From assembly GCF_028368995.1 (NCBI RefSeq), contig NZ_JAQNDL010000003.1:2528001-2592000 (forward strand): a stretch of 64,000 nt of DNA, written 5' to 3'. Under the pieces are notes generated by a model. It saw nothing but the letters and a program-made list of their open reading frames with translations, was not told the DNA's origin and searched no databases. How positions within the stretch are numbered: position 1 is the first letter of the stretch; each line of letters begins with the position of its first letter. The translations under genes and the position numbers were made by a program. The stretch is from Nannocystis bainbridge. Its GTDB lineage: Bacteria > Myxococcota_A > Polyangia > Nannocystales > Nannocystaceae. This document shows, piece after piece, positions 28,645 to 31,904 of the stretch.

Positions 28645-28665
28645 CGTGGAAGAGGAAGAGAAGAT

Positions 28666-28734
28666 TGCGTCGTCGGGCGGCCCCGACCCTCGGCTCTGAC
28701 CCGAGGCTTGCTGGATCGACACCAGCCGGCGCAA
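28666..28734 (+). tRNA. tRNA-Gln(CUG), compact and atypical
   Basis: TGCGTCG/CGGCGCA; CTCGG-CT-CTG-AC-CCGAG; T-loop ATCGACA. Confidence 0.75.
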
Positions 28735-28776
28735 TTTCAGTCGCAGGCCCGACCTATCGTCGGCCTGCGCAATCGA

Positions 28777-28847
28777 GGTGCCGTGGCCGAGTGACAGGCA
28801 GCGCTCTCATAAGGCGCCATACGCAGGTTCGTTACCTGCCGGCACCA
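28777..28847 (+). tRNA. tRNA-Met(CAU) (Met versus Ile2 not resolved)
   Basis: GGTGCCG/CGGCACC; GCGCT-CT-CAT-AA-GGCGC; T-loop TTCGTTA. Confidence 0.8.
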
Positions 28848-28863
28848 TCCTCGATGACAAATT

Positions 28864-28936
28864 GGGCTGCGAGCGAAGGCGCTGGCGAACCCTTGCAAGG
28901 TTCGTGTTACATCGGGGGCGGTACCCGAGCGGTCCA
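28864..28936 (+). tRNA. tRNA-Ala(UGC), atypical
   Basis: GGGCTGC/GCGGTCC with G3:U70 and A73; CGAACC-CT-TGC-AA-GGTTCG; T-loop GGCGGTA. Confidence 0.75.
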
Positions 28937-29020
28937 TACGCGGCGTAACGGCGCCTGTTACGTCACAGCGAGCGTTCTGCACACACACGGCGGTCGGAGC
29001 CGTGCTCGCACCGACAACCT

Positions 29021-29108
29021 GGAAGCGTCGTCCAATGGTAGGACAGCAGACCGTTAATCTGCCTGGGCAATCGCCCACTCGATGCAAGTTCGATCCTTGC
29101 CGCTTCCG
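29021..29108 (+). tRNA. tRNA-Asn(GUU) with long variable arm
   Basis: GGAAGCG/CGCTTCC, G73; GCAGA-CC-GTT-AA-TCTGC; V-arm TGGGC-AATC-GCCCA. Confidence 0.8.
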
Positions 29109-29113
29109 CTCCT

Positions 29114-29186
29114 GGGCCGATGGGACAGATGGATGTTCAGCGGGTTCTTACCCCGCCTCAGGCTGGATCGTTACCAGCTCGGCTCG
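29114..29186 (+). tRNA. tRNA-Lys(CUU)
   Basis: GGGCCGA/TCGGCTC; GCGGG-TT-CTT-AC-CCCGC; T-loop ATCGTTA. Confidence 0.8.
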
Positions 29187-29220
29187 TATCTCTTATTTAT
29201 TCTATAATCATTAGCAAACT

Positions 29221-29308
29221 GGGCTCCGGCCAGGACGGGAATGGGGCGGACTTTTAATCCGCATGCCGGGCGCTTGCGCTCGACCGAGTTCGACTCTCGG
29301 GGAGCTCT
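29221..29308 (+). tRNA. tRNA-Lys(UUU) with long variable arm
   Basis: GGGCTCC/GGAGCTC; GCGGA-CT-TTT-AA-TCCGC; V-arm CGGGCG-CTTG-CGCTCG. Confidence 0.8.
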
Positions 29309-29355
29309 TATATCTTCAATAACACTCTCGTTCGCGGCTCGAATGGGCCGCTCTT

Positions 29356-29429
29356 GCCGCCGTAGGGGAGTTGGAGTCTCCGCCTCGTTGTCAGCGAGGA
29401 GATCGCGGGTTCGAGTCCCGCCGGTGGCG
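29356..29429 (+). tRNA. tRNA-Asp(GUC) copy 1
   Basis: GCCGCCG/CGGTGGC, G73; CCTCG-TT-GTC-AG-CGAGG; TTCGAGT. Confidence 0.9.
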
Positions 29430-29471
29430 TTGTTCATTGATATCGATATCTCGGCCCGTACGGGCCGATTT

Positions 29472-29545
29472 GCCGCCGTAGGGGAGTTGGAGTCCTCGCC
29501 TCGTTGTCAGCGAGGAGATCGCGGGTTCGAGTCCCGCCGGTGGCG
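29472..29545 (+). tRNA. tRNA-Asp(GUC) copy 2
   Basis: Near-identical to copy 1. Confidence 0.9.
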
Positions 29546-29577
29546 TCGATCCATCTCTGCCAGCAGGGCCATTCTTT

Positions 29578-29651
29578 GCCGTCGTAGGGGAGCTGGAGTC
29601 CCCGCCTCGTTGTCAGCGAGGAGATCGCGGGTTCGAACCCCGCCGGTGGCG
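29578..29651 (+). tRNA. tRNA-Asp(GUC) copy 3
   Basis: Near-identical to copies 1 and 2. Confidence 0.9.
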
Positions 29652-29658
29652 CTCGAGC

Positions 29659-29727
29659 AGGGGCGCGCGTGGTGTGCTACGCGAGGCTTTGAACCTCGTA
29701 AGGAGAGTTCGAACCTCTCCGCCCCTT
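29659..29727 (+). tRNA. tRNA-Gln(UUG), compact
   Basis: AGGGGCG/CGCCCCT; CGAGG-CT-TTG-AA-CCTCG; TTCGAAC. Confidence 0.75.
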
Positions 29728-29800
29728 ACCCCTCGGATTTATCTTCGACTCTGATGAATCTTCCACCCGACGTGATTCGTATCTGAATCATCGAACATTC

Positions 29801-29871
29801 GCCGATGTGGCCTAGTGACTGGGCGTCACCCTTCCAAGGTGAAGACGCGGGTTTGATTCCTGCCATCGGCT
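29801..29871 (+). tRNA. tRNA-Gly(UCC)
   Basis: GCCGATG/CATCGGC, U73; TCACC-CT-TCC-AA-GGTGA; T-loop TTTGATT. Confidence 0.85.
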
Positions 29872-29885
29872 CTCTGTGAACCTCT

Positions 29886-29957
29886 GCAGTTCAGGTCTTG
29901 TCAGTGAGACGCGTGGTTGCCTACCACGAGGGCCCGGTGCGACCCCGGGGAGCTGCT
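29886..29957 (+). tRNA. tRNA-Gly(GCC)
   Basis: GCAGTTC/GAGCTGC, U73; CGTGG-TT-GCC-TA-CCACG; T-loop TGCGACC. Confidence 0.78.
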
Positions 29958-29969
29958 CTACCGTGAATA

Positions 29970-30037
29970 GCCCTTGCTCCAAGGGGGCGCGCTGCTTGGT
30001 ATGTAGCGATGTCCGGGAGCGTTACCCGGCGAGGGCT
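29970..30037 (+). tRNA. tRNA-Thr(GGU), reduced D-arm
   Basis: GCCCTTG/CGAGGGC; GCTGC-TT-GGT-AT-GTAGC; T-loop AGCGTTA. Confidence 0.7.
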
Positions 30038-30047
30038 TTTGAATCTT

Positions 30048-30120
30048 GCCCCCCAAGCATCAATGGTGATGCGCCGCCCTCGTAGCGCGGAATCGCCGGG
30101 TTCGATCCCCGGGAGGGGCT
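30048..30120 (+). tRNA. tRNA-Thr(CGU)
   Basis: GCCCCCC/GAGGGGC; loop CT-CGT-AG; TTCGATC. Confidence 0.8.
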
Positions 30121-30135
30121 ACCTTTTGAAAGGCC

Positions 30136-30207
30136 GGTCCACGAGCTCCCCGGTCGAGCGCCTGCCTGACATGCAGGAGGTACGAGGTTCGATTCCTCGA
30201 TGGACCA
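30136..30207 (+). tRNA. tRNA-Val(GAC)
   Basis: GGTCCAC/ATGGACC, A73; CCTGC-CT-GAC-AT-GCAGG; TTCGATT. Confidence 0.85.
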
Positions 30208-30230
30208 CTCGTTTCCAGTCTGGACAATCT

Positions 30231-30302
30231 GCTCTCGTCGTCTAATAGATAGGGCCCAGGTCTACGGAGCCTGCGATGGTGGTGCGATTCCACCCGAGAG
30301 TA
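30231..30302 (+). tRNA. tRNA-Arg(ACG)
   Basis: GCTCTCG/CGAGAGT; CAGGT-CT-ACG-GA-GCCTG; T-loop TGCGATT. Confidence 0.82.
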
Positions 30303-30322
30303 CTCATTTTGATAAAGACAAT

Positions 30323-30394
30323 GGCCTCGAAGTGTATGAGATTGCACGCGACCGTCCGAAGGTCGTGGACCGGGTGCGACTCCCGGCGGGGCTG
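30323..30394 (+). tRNA. tRNA-Arg(CCG)
   Basis: GGCCTCG/CGGGGCT; CGACC-GT-CCG-AA-GGTCG; T-loop TGCGACT. Confidence 0.8.
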
Positions 30395-30415
30395 CCGGGC
30401 CTGCTTGCGGGTCAC

Positions 30416-30488
30416 GCTCGCGTAGCTCAGCTGGACGAGCATTGGTCTTCTATACCATCGGACGCAGGTTCGAACCCTGCCGCGAGTA
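30416..30488 (+). tRNA. tRNA-Arg(UCU)
   Basis: GCTCGCG/CGCGAGT; TGGT-CT-TCT-AT-ACCA; TTCGAAC. Confidence 0.87.
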
Positions 30489-30514
30489 TCTTCGTTCGTT
30501 TGAATCGTTCATCC

Positions 30515-30586
30515 AGGGGAGAGGTGTTGATGGTGACATGCGGGACTCCAACTCCTGCGAACCGGGTTCGAGTCCCGGCTCCCCTG
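30515..30586 (+). tRNA. tRNA-Trp(CCA)
   Basis: AGGGGAG/CTCCCCT, G73; CGGGA-CT-CCA-AC-TCCTG; TTCGAGT. Confidence 0.87.
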
Positions 30587-30616
30587 TCTTGCATGGGCCC
30601 GGTGCTTCCGGGCCGT

Positions 30617-30682
30617 GGAGCCCGTTCTGGTGGAACGTCGCGGCGCTGCCGCGGTCGTCGGTTCGAGTCCGGCGGGGCTTCT
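30617..30682 (+). tRNA. Minimal tRNA-like RNA with GCU (Ser) triplet, no variable arm; identity uncertain
   Basis: GGAGCCC/GGGCTTC; GTTC-TGGTG-GAAC; TCGCGGC-GCT-GCCGCGG; canonical T arm GTCGG-TTCGAGT-CCGGC. Confidence 0.5.
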
Positions 30683-30683
30683 T

Positions 30684-30754
30684 TGGGCTAAAGCTCGTGA
30701 GAAGAGCGGTGCTCTGTGACAGCACAGGAGAGGGGGCGGAACCCTCTAGCCCAC
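30684..30754 (+). tRNA. tRNA-His(GUG) without encoded G-1
   Basis: TGGGCTA/TAGCCCA, C73; GTGCT-CT-GTG-AC-AGCAC; T-loop GGCGGAA. Confidence 0.78.
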
Positions 30755-30776
30755 CCGCGCGCCAACCGGCGCGCAC

Positions 30777-30848
30777 GCCCGCGTAGCTCAACGGAAGAGC
30801 GGCGTTCTCACACATCGCAGGTCGGGGGCTCGACACCCTCCGCGGGCA
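30777..30848 (+). tRNA. tRNA-Val(CAC)
   Basis: GCCCGCG/CGCGGGC, A73; loop CT-CAC-AC; T-loop CTCGACA. Confidence 0.8.
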
Positions 30849-30870
30849 ACGAACGTCTTCGTAACAACCT

Positions 30871-30941
30871 GGCCCTGTAGTTCAACGGCAGAACCCCGCG
30901 CTCTCTACGCGGAAACCGGAGATCGTCACTCCGCAGGGTCA
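30871..30941 (+). tRNA. tRNA-Glu(CUC)
   Basis: GGCCCTG/CAGGGTC; CCGCG-CT-CTC-TA-CGCGG; T-loop ATCGTCA. Confidence 0.8.
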
Positions 30942-30947
30942 TTCGTA

Positions 30948-31020
30948 CGAGGTGAAGGCTTGATGGTAAGCCGCATGCTCGGGGAGCATGAGATTGTGCG
31001 TTCGACTCGCACCACCTCGA
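30948..31020 (+). tRNA. tRNA-Pro(GGG)
   Basis: CGAGGTG/CACCTCG (C1-G72, A73); CATGC-TC-GGG-GA-GCATG. Confidence 0.83.
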
Positions 31021-31042
31021 TTGTTTTTATTTCAACAATCAT

Positions 31043-31116
31043 CGGAGACGGATCGCGGAGTGCGAGGCGTGTTTCGGGAACACGTAGGCGGGGTGCGACG
31101 CCCCGGTCTCCGACCA
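31043..31116 (+). tRNA. tRNA-Pro(CGG), encoded CCA
   Basis: CGGAGAC/GTCTCCG, A73 then CCA; CGTGT-TT-CGG-GA-ACACG; T-loop TGCGACG. Confidence 0.8.
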
Positions 31117-31162
31117 ACCCCTGCCCCGGGCCGCGGCCAAGCGCTGCGGCCCGGGCTCTCTC

Positions 31163-31233
31163 CCGCGTCCGTGGACGGTGCCACACCTCGTCTGATAAGC
31201 GAGCCCTTCGGAGTTCAACTCTCCGGGCGCGGA
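31163..31233 (+). tRNA. tRNA-Ile(GAU)
   Basis: CCGCGTC/GGCGCGG, A73; CTCGT-CT-GAT-AA-GCGAG; TTCAACT. Confidence 0.78.
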
Positions 31234-31277: not shown

Positions 31278-31904
31278 TCATGGCCCGGGGCGCGGCGCCA
31301 GGTAGCCGCCGACGAGGGCGATGAGCTCCTCGACGAGGCGGGGGTCGGACAGCCGCTCGGGCTGCTCGAGCACGCACGTGAGGATCACCCACTCGATCGC
31401 GCTGACGATCACGAACGCGGCCAGCTCCGGGTCGACCGGCCGCAGCTCGGCGCTGCGGGCGATCAACGCGTCGCGCAGGCGCTCGCGGCCCGCGTGCACG
31501 TGGGCCCGCAACGCCTCGACGCGACCGACCCGCGGCACGTGCAGCAGCACCGCGCGGAAGAACTCCAGATCGCCGCGGTAGAGGTCGATCGCGGCGCGCA
31601 GGCCGTCGCGCATCTGCTCGGCGAAGGAGCCGCCGTCGGGCGCCGGGACCTCGAACACGCGCTCGATGCCGCGGGTGAACTTGCGGTCGAGCGCCGCCGC
31701 GAGCATCGCCTCCTTGCTCGGGAAGTACTGGTAGAGCGAACCGACGCTGACCCCGGCGACCCGCGCGATCTCGTTGGTCGTCGTCGCCTCGAGGCCGCGC
31801 TCGCCGAGCACGCGGACGGCGGCGTCGAGCAGCGTATCGACCATCTGCTGGCTCCGCGCCTGGCGCGGCTGCTTGCGCGGGGTATGGCGAATCGGCGAAG
31901 TCAT
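31278..31904 (-). CDS. TetR/AcrR family regulator
   Basis: PRQARS; TTNEIARVAGVSVGSLYQYFPSK HTH. Confidence 0.92.
   Translation of the reverse strand: MTSPIRHTPRKQPRQARSQQMVDTLLDAAVRVLGERGLEATTTNEIARVAGVSVGSLYQYFPSKEAMLAAALDRKFTRGIERVFEVPAPDGGSFAEQMRDGLRAAIDLYRGDLEFFRAVLLHVPRVGRVEALRAHVHAGRERLRDALIARSAELRPVDPELAAFVIVSAIEWVILTCVLEQPERLSDPRLVEELIALVGGYLAPRPGP

What the first reader, a model, noticed from the sequence alone, without database searches (positions are those of the whole stretch)
28666..31233. Rewired tRNA elbows with compensatory tertiary pairs
Seen: all seven tRNAs with G55 instead of U55 (Ala, Gly-GCC, Thr-GGU, Arg-ACG, Arg-CCG, His, Pro-CGG) have AG in the D-loop, consistent with A18:G55. 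Most U55 tRNAs keep GG. Gly-UCC has A19 with U56. Lys-CUU, Thr-GGU and Glu swap to A54/U58, and Ala and His have G54/G58. Identity elements survive (Ala G3:U70, Arg A20, Gly U73, Pro C1-G72, His C73). Inference: these are selected, functional tRNAs rather than pseudogenes, perhaps independent of TrmA/TruB modification or evading elbow-reading toxins.
Basis: partly seen in the sequence, partly recalled or inferred. Interest (0 to 1): 0.72.

Follow-up and report, generated by a model that had tools for sequence, protein, structure and literature searches.

The report
tRNA array with rewired elbows
A Nannocystis chromosome carries a spare set of about 25 tRNA genes, conserved across species, in which the normally invariant contacts that hold the tRNA corner together have been swapped for matched alternatives.

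Summary
Window 28665-31233 (+) is a 2.6-kb array of 26 tRNA-like genes in an 11-Mb Nannocystis genome that also has a full canonical tRNA set. Seven genes have G55; the five with a regular cloverleaf have A18-G19 where others have G18-G19. If the D-loop register is fixed only by a Watson-Crick 19:56 pair, all 34 G55 copies in six genomes read A18 and 0 of 73 U55 copies do. Gly-UCC has A19:U56. A54/U58 and G54/G58 are as reported, and 8:14 also covaries. A strict cloverleaf scan of both strands of the genome finds G55 cloverleaves only in the array. The tRNA bodies are 93-96% identical to five congeners, against 28-61% for the spacers, so they are under purifying selection and are not pseudogenes. 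U-G-C-R-A plus an adenine at the intercalating position matches the YGNRA T-loops of riboswitches. G-G-C-R-G resembles an rRNA T-loop. My reading is a vertically kept long tRNA array whose members fold by compensated tertiary pairs. Expression, charging and any toxin or modification evasion are untested. Caveats: Met is a counterexample for 19:56, His lacks G-1, and Ala and Thr-GGU have tiny D-arms that cannot be numbered.

The parts
28665..28735 (+). tRNA-Gln(CUG). Compact core: 6-bp D stem with a 4-nt loop, 6-bp anticodon stem, 3-nt variable region. T-loop ATCGACA (A54, A58).
   Evidence: 94-100% identical in 5 congeners
28777..28847 (+). tRNA-Met(CAU). D-loop AGTGAC type (G18 A19) with C56, so it is a counterexample to 19:56 pairing. 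T-loop TTCGTTA (U58). Position 54 is U, C or G among orthologues.
   Evidence: Rfam tRNA 50.7 bits
28864..28936 (+). tRNA-Ala(UGC). G3:U70, 1-nt linker, 4-bp D stem with AAGG loop, 7-bp anticodon stem. T-loop GGCGGTA (G54 G55 G58). Missed by default ARAGORN and by Rfam.
28939..29015 (+). X1: a conserved non-tRNA element. It is a roughly 10-bp hairpin followed by an acceptor/T-arm-like minihelix (T-loop-like GGTCGGA).
   Evidence: 95-96% identical in 4 of 5 congeners; alifold
29021..29108 (+). tRNA-Asn(GUU). Canonical elbow (GG, TTCGA) but with a 21-nt variable arm.
   Evidence: the arm is absent in G010
29114..29186 (+). tRNA-Lys(CUU). GG, with T-loop ATCGTTA (A54/U58 swap).
29221..29308 (+). 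tRNA-Lys(UUU). GG, TTCGA, 21-nt variable arm.
29356..29651 (+). Three tRNA-Asp(GUC) copies (29356-29429, 29472-29545, 29578-29651) with canonical elbows.
29659..29727 (+). tRNA-Gln(UUG). 4-nt D-loop, 3-nt variable region, T-loop TTCGAAC.
29801..29871 (+). tRNA-Gly(UCC). D-loop AGTGACT, T-loop TTTGATT: G18, A19:U56.
   Evidence: 61.5 bits in Rfam
29886..29957 (+). tRNA-Gly(GCC). A8:U14, A18 G19, T-loop TGCGACC (G55). U37 in 5 of 6 genomes.
29970..30037 (+). tRNA-Thr(GGU). Mini D-arm with AAG(G) loop, 6-7-bp anticodon stem. T-loop AGCGTTA (A54 G55 U58).
30048..30207 (+). tRNA-Thr(CGU) 30048-30120 (A8, C14) and tRNA-Val(GAC) 30136-30207 (G8:C14). Both have GG and TTCGA.
30231..30302 (+). tRNA-Arg(ACG). 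D-loop AATAGATA (A18 G19 A20), T-loop TGCGATT (G55).
   Evidence: 45.9 bits in Rfam
30323..30394 (+). tRNA-Arg(CCG). D-loop ATGAGATT (A18 G19 A20), T-loop TGCGACT (G55).
30416..30586 (+). tRNA-Arg(UCU) 30416-30488 and tRNA-Trp 30515-30586 (A8:U14). Canonical elbows.
30595..30681 (+). X2: an 87-nt tRNA-like insert that ARAGORN calls Thr(GGU). It has no orthologue in the five congeners.
   Evidence: skipped in a soil contig
30684..30754 (+). tRNA-His(GUG). D-loop GTGAGAA (A18 G19), T-loop GGCGGAA (G54 G55 G58), C73, U1:A72, no G-1.
30777..31020 (+). tRNA-Val(CAC) 30777-30848 (C54); tRNA-Glu(CUC) 30871-30941 (A54/U58); tRNA-Pro(GGG) 30948-31020 (A8:U14).
31043..31116 (+). tRNA-Pro(CGG). G8:C14, D-loop CGGAGTG (A18 G19), T-loop TGCGACG (G55), C1:G72, A73, encoded CCA.
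31163..31233 (+). tRNA-Ile(GAU). 3-4-bp D stem, T-loop TTCAACT.

Best explanation
This is a long, same-strand accessory tRNA gene array ('L-array' type) that has been kept at one chromosomal locus in the genus Nannocystis. Its roughly 25 tRNAs duplicate the host's canonical set but are maintained by purifying selection.

Many of them hold the L-shape with alternative, mutually compensated tertiary contacts:
- U54-G55-C56-R57-A58 T-loops paired with A18-G19. This is a riboswitch-type YGNRA T-loop whose intercalating base is adenine instead of G18, while the outer G19:C56 pair is kept.
- G54-G55-C56-R57-G58 in His and Ala.
- A54/U58 swaps.
- A19:U56 in Gly-UCC.
- A8:U14 or G8:C14 in place of U8:A14.

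Four genes (Ala, Thr-GGU and both Gln) also have a compact core like tRNAPyl or mitochondrial tRNASer(UCN).

Shown here: the sequences, the covariation, the conservation and the redundancy.

Inferred: that they fold as T-loops with A18 intercalated, and that they are transcribed, processed, charged (identity elements are mostly kept) and used in translation under some condition, as shown for the Anabaena L-array. G55 tRNAs necessarily lack pseudouridine-55, and A54/G54/C54 tRNAs lack m5U54.
For: - Array and redundancy: 26 tRNA-like genes in 2.57 kb. Every array anticodon that I checked also has a canonical gene elsewhere. 69 of 79 ARAGORN calls outside the array have TTC[AG]A and none has G55.
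- Selection: tRNA bodies are 92.6-96.0% identical to five congeners, spacers 28-61%, and flanking DNA 70-89%. Conservation ends at the tRNA borders and stems show compensatory changes.
- 18:55: all 34 G55 copies in 6 anticodon families have A18-G19 as the only register with a Watson-Crick 19:56 pair. 0 of 73 U55 copies has A18 in any allowed register. By family this is 6 of 6 against 0 of 13, hypergeometric 1/27132 (my arithmetic).
- Independence: outside the elbow, G55 tRNAs are no closer to each other (0.375) than to U55 tRNAs (0.417).
- 8:14 is complementary in 16 of 21 anticodon groups (shuffle mean 8.2, P about 1e-4). 54:58 is complementary in 16 of 21 (P 0.003).
- Background: G55 cloverleaves occur only in the array across 22 Mb scanned.
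- Precedent: FMN and cobalamin riboswitch T-loops are YGNRA with adenosine intercalated between positions 4 and 5, and an rRNA T-loop reads GGAAG (bioRxiv 10.1101/2022.12.26.521914, passages). In tRNA, G18 stacks between A58 and R57 (PMC7912444, passages).
- L-arrays are supernumerary. The Anabaena one encodes functional tRNAs that are induced under translational stress (PMC8421152, abstract and sections 18 and 26).
Against: - There is no evidence of transcription, processing or aminoacylation. No RNA run is on record.
- Only 13 of 26 genes reach the Rfam tRNA threshold, and only Arg-ACG among the G55 genes.
- Rfam's model aligns Arg-ACG as G18 A19.
- Met has G18 A19 with C56, and its position 54 drifts among U, C and G.
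- His lacks G-1.
- Gly-GCC has a pyrimidine at 37 in 5 of 6 genomes.
- The Val(CAC) orthologue carries UAC or UGC in other species.
- Ala and Thr-GGU cannot be numbered with confidence.
- The six genomes are close kin. The covariation therefore rests on about 6-8 tRNA families, not on 34 independent events.
- Unlike described L-arrays, this one is syntenic and shows no sign of recent transfer.
- No sigma-70-like promoter was found.
Confidence: 0.6

Rival explanations
1. The rewiring is adaptive. The altered elbows make these tRNAs invisible to something that reads the canonical G18-G19/T-Psi-C corner, such as a tRNA-directed toxin or phage nuclease, or a modification or decay pathway. The array would then be a protected reserve set.
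For: tRNA arrays in mycobacteria are described as a putative anti-defence system (PMC12803027, abstract in the listing). G55 and non-U54 tRNAs cannot be substrates for pseudouridine-55 or m5U54 formation, and TruB and a U5-methyltransferase family member are present in the genome. The altered positions are invariant across species.
Against: Nothing here points to an elbow-directed toxin, and the neighbouring genes are ordinary. Only about a third of the array has a changed 18:55 pair, and the outer G19:C56 platform that RNase P and the ribosome contact (from my own knowledge) is kept. The tRNA-directed toxins I know of act on anticodon loops or acceptor ends (recalled, not checked).
Confidence: 0.15
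2. They are tRNA-like RNAs with a role outside ribosomal decoding, for example aminoacyl donors for secondary metabolism or cell-envelope chemistry, decoys or regulators. Poor fit to EF-Tu or the ribosome would then be tolerated or useful.
For: Many core deviations: compact cores, 21-nt variable arms in Asn and Lys, U37 in Gly-GCC. X1 is a conserved non-tRNA element inside the array. Roles of tRNAs outside translation are known (PMC4758250, introduction passage).
Against: The set covers 15 amino acids with anticodons conserved in 22 of 23 orthologue groups and mostly normal anticodon loops, which fits decoding. No biosynthetic or transferase genes lie beside the array.
Confidence: 0.15
3. They are decaying pseudogenes or chance cloverleaves, and the AG/G55 association is a numbering artefact.
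For: Half fall below the Rfam threshold. Rfam numbers Arg-ACG differently. X2 has no orthologue, and one Gly-UCC copy in G001 is cut by an insertion sequence.
Against: Bodies are 93-96% conserved against 28-61% for spacers. Stems show compensatory changes. There is no G55 cloverleaf anywhere else in 22 Mb. The association holds when the register is set independently by 19:56.
Confidence: 0.05

Closest known systems
[quoted passage not shown]
   Same: At least 20 same-strand tRNA genes at far more than 2 per kb. They are supernumerary, duplicating the host's isoacceptors rather than adding anticodons. They are not periodic, and they are restricted to one lineage among those searched.
   Different: This array is syntenic and vertically kept in six Nannocystis genomes. 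It has no homing endonuclease or mobile-element genes beside it and no match in the phage or plasmid collections. About half of its tRNAs have non-canonical tertiary cores. A mycobacteriophage array checked as a control is fully canonical: 24 of 24 have GG and TTCRA.
T-loop motifs outside tRNA: YGNRA T-loops of FMN and cobalamin riboswitches with an intercalating adenosine, and the rRNA GGAAG T-loop
   Same: U-G-C-R-A (five families) fits YGNRA. The D-loop base at the intercalating position is A. G-G-C-R-G (His, Ala) has the G1, G2, R4, G5 pattern of GGAAG.
   Different: Those motifs dock on riboswitch or rRNA receptors, not on a D-loop. No structure shows such an elbow in a tRNA. Here position 3 (C56) still pairs with G19, as in tRNA.
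tRNAPyl and mitochondrial tRNASer(UCN) (compact-core tRNAs)
   Same: Ala, Thr-GGU and both Gln genes have a small D-loop (3-4 nt), a 6-7-bp anticodon stem, and a short linker or variable region. D. hafniense tRNAPyl also has G55 and lacks G18-G19 (PMC1851642, passages; PMC7609411, passages).
   Different: The anticodons are sense anticodons (Ala, Thr, Gln) and Ala keeps G3:U70. There is no CUA anticodon. C56 and a G that can serve as G19 are kept.
Canonical bacterial elongator tRNA (Rfam RF00005)
   Same: Cloverleaf with 7-bp acceptor stem, 5-bp T stem, 7-nt T-loop, 7-nt anticodon loop with U33, and identity elements.
   Different: G18, U54, U55, A58 and U8:A14 are replaced in many members. 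13 of 26 do not reach the family's score.

Membership tests
tRNA (Rfam RF00005) | Score at or above the gathering threshold (29 bits) | tested here: inconclusive
   13 of 26 array genes pass. Of the seven G55 genes only Arg-ACG passes (45.9 bits).
tRNA (Rfam RF00005) | Cloverleaf with acceptor, D, anticodon and T arms | tested here: met
   ARAGORN and my own finder parse 25 genes. Alifold supports the atypical ones.
tRNA (Rfam RF00005) | Conserved G18-G19 and U54-U55-C56 ... A58 | tested here: not met
   Replaced in 7 (position 55), 8 (54 and/or 58) and 3 or more (18-19) window genes.
tRNA (Rfam RF00005) | Aminoacylated and used in decoding | not testable with these tools
   No RNA run on record.
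L-array / tRNA array unit | At least 20 tRNA genes at a density of at least 2 per kb (definition from the abstract of PMC4758250) | tested here: met
   25-26 genes in 2569 bases.
L-array / tRNA array unit | Same orientation, short intergenic distances, supernumerary to the host set | tested here: met
   All genes are on the + strand and gaps are 3-170 nt. The housekeeping set lies elsewhere.
L-array / tRNA array unit | Spread by horizontal transfer; patchy distribution; often beside a homing endonuclease | tested here: inconclusive
   Found in 6 of 11 same-genus genomes. The other 5 are 64-88% complete. Not found in 24 same-family genomes or in a 300-genome sample of the phylum. It is syntenic and no endonuclease lies nearby.
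L-array / tRNA array unit | Silent, but induced under translational stress | not testable with these tools
   No expression data.
YGNRA-type T-loop with adenine intercalator | Five-nucleotide consensus Y-G-N-R-A | tested here: met
   TGCGA or TGCAA in Gly-GCC, Arg-ACG, Arg-CCG and Pro-CGG in all six genomes. Not met by His and Ala (GGCRG), Thr-GGU (AGCGT) or Arg-CCU (AGCGA).
YGNRA-type T-loop with adenine intercalator | Adenosine stacked between positions 4 and 5 | not testable with these tools
   Inferred from invariant A18. It needs probing or a structure.
tRNAPyl | CUA anticodon, PylRS partner, 6-bp anticodon stem, 3-nt variable loop, 5-nt D-loop | tested here: not met
   The anticodons are UGC, GGU, CUG and UUG. 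Only the compact architecture is shared.

The most novel reading that the evidence does not exclude
Nannocystis maintains a working second tRNA set in which a bacterial elongator tRNA elbow is built on a riboswitch-type U-G-N-R-A T-loop with an adenine (A18) intercalator, and in His and Ala on a G-G-N-R-G T-loop. This would be a natural alternative solution to the G18:Psi55 contact, which is treated as near-universal outside tRNAPyl and mitochondria. These tRNAs would be charged and decode while lacking Psi55 and, in some, m5U54. That could make them a natural source of scaffolds orthogonal to elbow-reading enzymes.
Probability: 0.4. Interest if true: 0.8.

Novelty: new variant of a known kind. 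Interest (0 to 1): 0.62.

Why it matters
G18:Psi55, G19:C56, U54:A58 and U8:A14 are among the most conserved contacts in biology, and many enzymes read them. This array is a set of natural tRNAs, kept by selection in several species, that replaces these contacts in matched pairs.

It is a ready-made covariation experiment on the tRNA corner. It shows which replacements nature tolerates: G55 with A18, U56 with A19, A54 with U58, G54 with G58, A8 with U14, and G8 with C14.

It links the tRNA T-loop to the YGNRA T-loops of riboswitches. It also shows that standard tRNA finders miss such genes: default ARAGORN misses three here, and Rfam misses half.

If the tRNAs are active, they bear on what TruB and TrmA are needed for. 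They also offer candidate orthogonal scaffolds, and they raise the question of what an accessory array does in a predatory soil bacterium.

Tried and rejected
- Expression: the look-up of sequencing runs listed no RNA holder. Contigs from four soil or wetland runs labelled metatranscriptomic or RNA-Seq, which the tool flags as probably DNA, cover parts of a relative's array, including stretches that span several tRNAs and spacers. This cannot show transcription.
- Origin: blastn of the array against phages gave 4 marginal single-tRNA-Val hits, and against plasmids none. Exact searches with a 24-mer (His) and a 30-mer (Pro-CGG) gave 0 in viral contigs and 0 in metagenome contigs. In genome contigs the 30-mer hit only four Nannocystis records.
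- Promoter scan: no sigma-70-like site, and terminator-like sites at background level.
- Neighbouring genes: no tRNA-related, toxin or mobile-element function.
- An alignment of the G55 tRNAs (A1) was meant for a covariance model to search other genera. MAFFT put Pro-CGG and His out of register, and such a model would not separate G55 tRNAs from ordinary ones, so I dropped it. A survey for G55/A18 tRNAs outside this genus was therefore not done.
- I recalled that Staphylococcus cell-wall tRNAGly species have a changed T-Psi-C. The paper I opened (PMC7826273) has none of the search terms, so this remains unverified recall and is not used.
- Supplements of PMC8421152, which list the species with L-arrays, could not be seen. 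Whether Nannocystis is already listed there is unknown.
- Searches for print on this array found nothing on it: 'Sorangium/tRNA array', 'Nannocystis/tRNA genes' (4 unrelated papers), 'G55/A18/tRNA' and 'tRNA elbow/covariation'.

Full report
WHAT IS THERE

The window is G000:C2:2528001-2592000 of an 11.05-Mb, 71% G+C genome in 5 contigs. An exact 30-mer from the array occurs in four named Nannocystis records (N. exedens, N. punicea, N. radixulma, N. sp.), so the genus is Nannocystis (Myxococcota).

ARAGORN with default settings finds 23 tRNA genes on the + strand between 28665 and 31233. Relaxed ARAGORN and a cloverleaf finder of my own, which puts no constraint on loop sequence, add Ala-UGC, Thr-GGU and His. 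That gives 26 tRNA-like genes in 2.57 kb.

Rfam's tRNA model accepts 12 of them in the whole-window run and 13 with laxer filters. Of the seven G55 genes it accepts only Arg-ACG.

The genome has a full canonical set elsewhere. Of 79 ARAGORN calls outside the array, 69 have a TTC[AG]A T-loop. The other 10 are over-long, doubtful calls. None has G at position 55. The array is therefore redundant.

CHECK OF THE OBSERVATION

The seven G55 T-loops, the AG in each of their D-loops, A19/U56 in Gly-UCC, A54/U58 in Lys-CUU, Glu and Thr-GGU, and G54/G58 in His and Ala are all in the sequence as described.

The weak point is numbering. The Rfam model aligns the Arg-ACG D-loop AAUAGAUA with G at 18 and A at 19. 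For an 8-nt loop both registers cost the same in sequence terms.

I therefore fixed the register with a criterion that does not look at 18 or 55. It allows one to three nucleotides between 15 and 18 and at least one between 19 and 21, and it requires a Watson-Crick 19:56 pair. The finder parsed 125 tRNA genes in six genomes:
- Of the 73 U55 copies that have an allowed register, none has A18. They read G18, or U/C18 in the alternative register.
- Eighteen copies have D-arms too small or irregular to number: Thr-GGU 3, Met 5, Ile 6, Gln 3, and one Glu.
- By family this is 6 of 6 against 0 of 13.

For loops of 7 nt there is only one possible register. His and Pro-CGG (A18-G19) can be compared directly with Asn, Val, Glu and Val-GAC (G18-G19).

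Ala and Thr-GGU have a 3-4-nt D-loop, AAGG or AAG. They contain AG but cannot be numbered.

Met is a counterexample for 19:56. Its D-loop is of the same AGUGAC type as Gly-UCC (G18 A19), but it keeps C56.

MORE THAN CHANCE

I ran a strict scan requiring no mismatch in the acceptor, anticodon and T stems, plus U33 and R37. It covered both strands of the whole genome.
- With an N-G-C-R T-loop it returns four hits, all in the array.
- With N-U-C-R it returns 42.

Gly-GCC is not among the four because it has U37.

SELECTION

Homologous arrays lie at the same locus in five other genomes of the genus (G001, G003, G005, G007, G010). The upstream flank matches in all five and the downstream flank in four. 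The other five same-genus genomes searched are 64-88% complete and gave only single-tRNA matches.

Conservation compared with the window:

| Region | Identity to congeners |
|---|---|
| tRNA bodies | 92.6-96.0% |
| Spacers | 28-61% |
| Flanking DNA | 70-89% |

In the alignments conservation stops within a base or two of each tRNA end. Stems show compensatory changes. Examples are the Lys-CUU T stem GCUGG/CCAGC to GUUGG/CCAAC, the Gly-UCC and Ala T stems, and the Arg-CCG acceptor.

The anticodon is the same in all genomes for 22 of 23 orthologue groups. The exception is Val-CAC, which reads UAC in three genomes and UGC in one.

Within the 34 G55 copies, positions 18, 19, 54, 55, 56 and 58 never change. 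Positions 15, 16, 17, 20, 20a/21 and 59-60 do change, and 57 changes only between G and A. This is the pattern expected of folded, used tRNAs and not of pseudogenes.

INDEPENDENCE

Outside the elbow, G55 tRNAs are no more alike among themselves (mean 0.375) than they are to U55 tRNAs (0.417). The nearest neighbour of each is a U55 tRNA; for Arg-ACG it is Arg-UCU. They do not look like one recently duplicated family.

The six genomes are close kin, however. The evidence rests on about six to eight families, not on 34 events.

FURTHER REWIRING

The 8:14 pair also covaries. It is U8:A14 in 11 anticodon groups, A8:U14 in 3 (Gly-GCC, Trp, Pro-GGG) and G8:C14 in 2 (Val-GAC, Pro-CGG). That is 16 of 21 complementary, against 8.2 in shuffles (P about 1e-4). 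The 54:58 pair is complementary in 16 of 21 (P 0.003).

Four genes have a compact core:
- Ala has a 1-nt linker, a 4-bp D stem, an AAGG loop and a 7-bp anticodon stem.
- Thr-GGU is similar.
- Gln-CUG has a 6-bp D stem, a 4-nt loop, a 6-bp anticodon stem and a 3-nt variable region.
- Gln-UUG has a 4-nt D-loop.

HOW IT MOST LIKELY WORKS

In canonical tRNA, G18 stacks between A58 and R57 and bonds to Psi55, and G19 pairs with C56 (PMC7912444, passages).

T-loops outside tRNA have a different rule. In FMN and cobalamin riboswitches they are YGNRA (UGNRA 88.7%). The base that intercalates between positions 4 and 5 is almost always adenosine. A tRNA-type UUAAA loop was the only active variant that did not use adenosine. 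An rRNA T-loop reads GGAAG (bioRxiv 10.1101/2022.12.26.521914, passages).

U54-G55-C56-R57-A58 with A18 is that rule transplanted into a tRNA. G54-G55-C56-R57-G58 in His and Ala has the GGAAG pattern. The outer G19:C56 pair is kept.

I infer that these tRNAs form a normal L-shape with a changed inner layer of the elbow. That they fold so, and that they are processed, charged and decode, is inference.

The identity elements mostly fit: Ala G3:U70, Gly U73, Pro C1:G72 and A73, Arg A20, His C73. His has U1:A72 and no G-1.

G55 cannot become pseudouridine and non-U54 cannot become m5U. The genome does encode TruB and a U5-methyltransferase family member.

COMPARISON WITH WHAT IS KNOWN

The array meets the published definition of a tRNA array unit or L-array: at least 20 genes, at least 2 per kb, same strand, supernumerary (PMC4758250 abstract; PMC8421152 abstract and sections 18 and 26).

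It differs from described L-arrays in several ways:
- It is syntenic across the genus.
- It has no mobile-element or endonuclease genes beside it.
- It was not found in 24 same-family genomes, in a 300-genome sample of the phylum, in phage, plasmid, viral or metagenome collections.
- A mycobacteriophage array checked as a control is fully canonical, with 24 of 24 having GG and TTCRA.

The compact genes resemble tRNAPyl and mitochondrial tRNASer(UCN) in architecture only.

In the passages and listings I saw, I found no description of this array or of an A18/G55 elbow in bacterial elongator tRNAs. Supplements were closed.

VERDICT

The reading 'selected, not pseudogenes' is well supported by comparative evidence. 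The structural logic has a precedent. The proposed reasons (modification independence, toxin evasion) are untested.

I class it as a new variant of a known kind: an L-array whose members carry compensated, non-canonical elbows.

Noticed in passing
window 28939-29015: X1 lies between Ala and Asn and is 95-96% conserved in 4 of 5 congeners. It folds as a roughly 10-bp hairpin followed by an acceptor-like 6-7-bp stem enclosing a T-arm-like hairpin (loop GGTCGGA) and a variable 12-14-nt bulge. It is not a tRNA. Function unknown.
   Followed up: partly
window 30595-30681: X2 is an 87-nt tRNA-like element that ARAGORN calls Thr(GGU). It has a canonical T arm. It has no orthologue in the five congeners and is skipped in a soil contig of a relative. 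It looks like a lineage-specific insert or chimera.
   Followed up: partly
window 29021-29108 and 29221-29308: Asn(GUU) and Lys(UUU) carry 21-nt stem-loop variable arms, which is unusual for these amino acids. The Asn arm is missing in G010, whose gene is a normal 71 nt.
   Followed up: partly
window 30777-30848; L013 4020-4091; L016 2537-2608: The same tRNA body carries anticodon CAC in G000 and G003, UAC in G001, G005 and G007, and UGC (alanine) in G010. It has no G3:U70, so this is an anticodon shift on a Val-type body.
   Followed up: no
window 29886-29957: Gly(GCC) has a pyrimidine at position 37 in 5 of 6 genomes (A in G003), and positions 37-38 vary (UA, UU, AU).
   Followed up: no
window 30684-30754: Array tRNA-His has U1:A72 and C73 but no encoded G-1. 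The base before it is U in all six genomes.
   Followed up: partly
L013 1350-2960 (G001): A 1.6-kb insertion with a DDE_3/HTH transposase (IS630-like) sits inside the array of G001. It replaces the 5' acceptor strand of Gly(UCC).
   Followed up: partly
L017 (G003): The G003 array has extra members: Arg(CCU) with T-loop AGCGAAG and D-loop AGCCCAGACGA; Phe(GAA) with T-loop CTCGGTA; Thr(UGU); a second Asp; and a roughly 0.7-kb insert between Val(CAC) and Glu.
   Followed up: partly
window 31278-31904 (-): A TetR-family gene lies directly after the array in G000. In the congeners the conserved downstream flank begins right after the array, so this gene is absent there.
   Followed up: partly
G000 C2:2356727-2357509; C1:3057230-3057513; C3:526095-526398 (outside the window): Three further tRNA clusters (Leu x5 + Tyr + Pro-UGG; Cys x3; Ser x3) cover Leu, Tyr, Cys and Ser, four of the five amino acids missing from the window array (Phe is the fifth). 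Their T-loops are canonical, but some have A or G at position 8.
   Followed up: no
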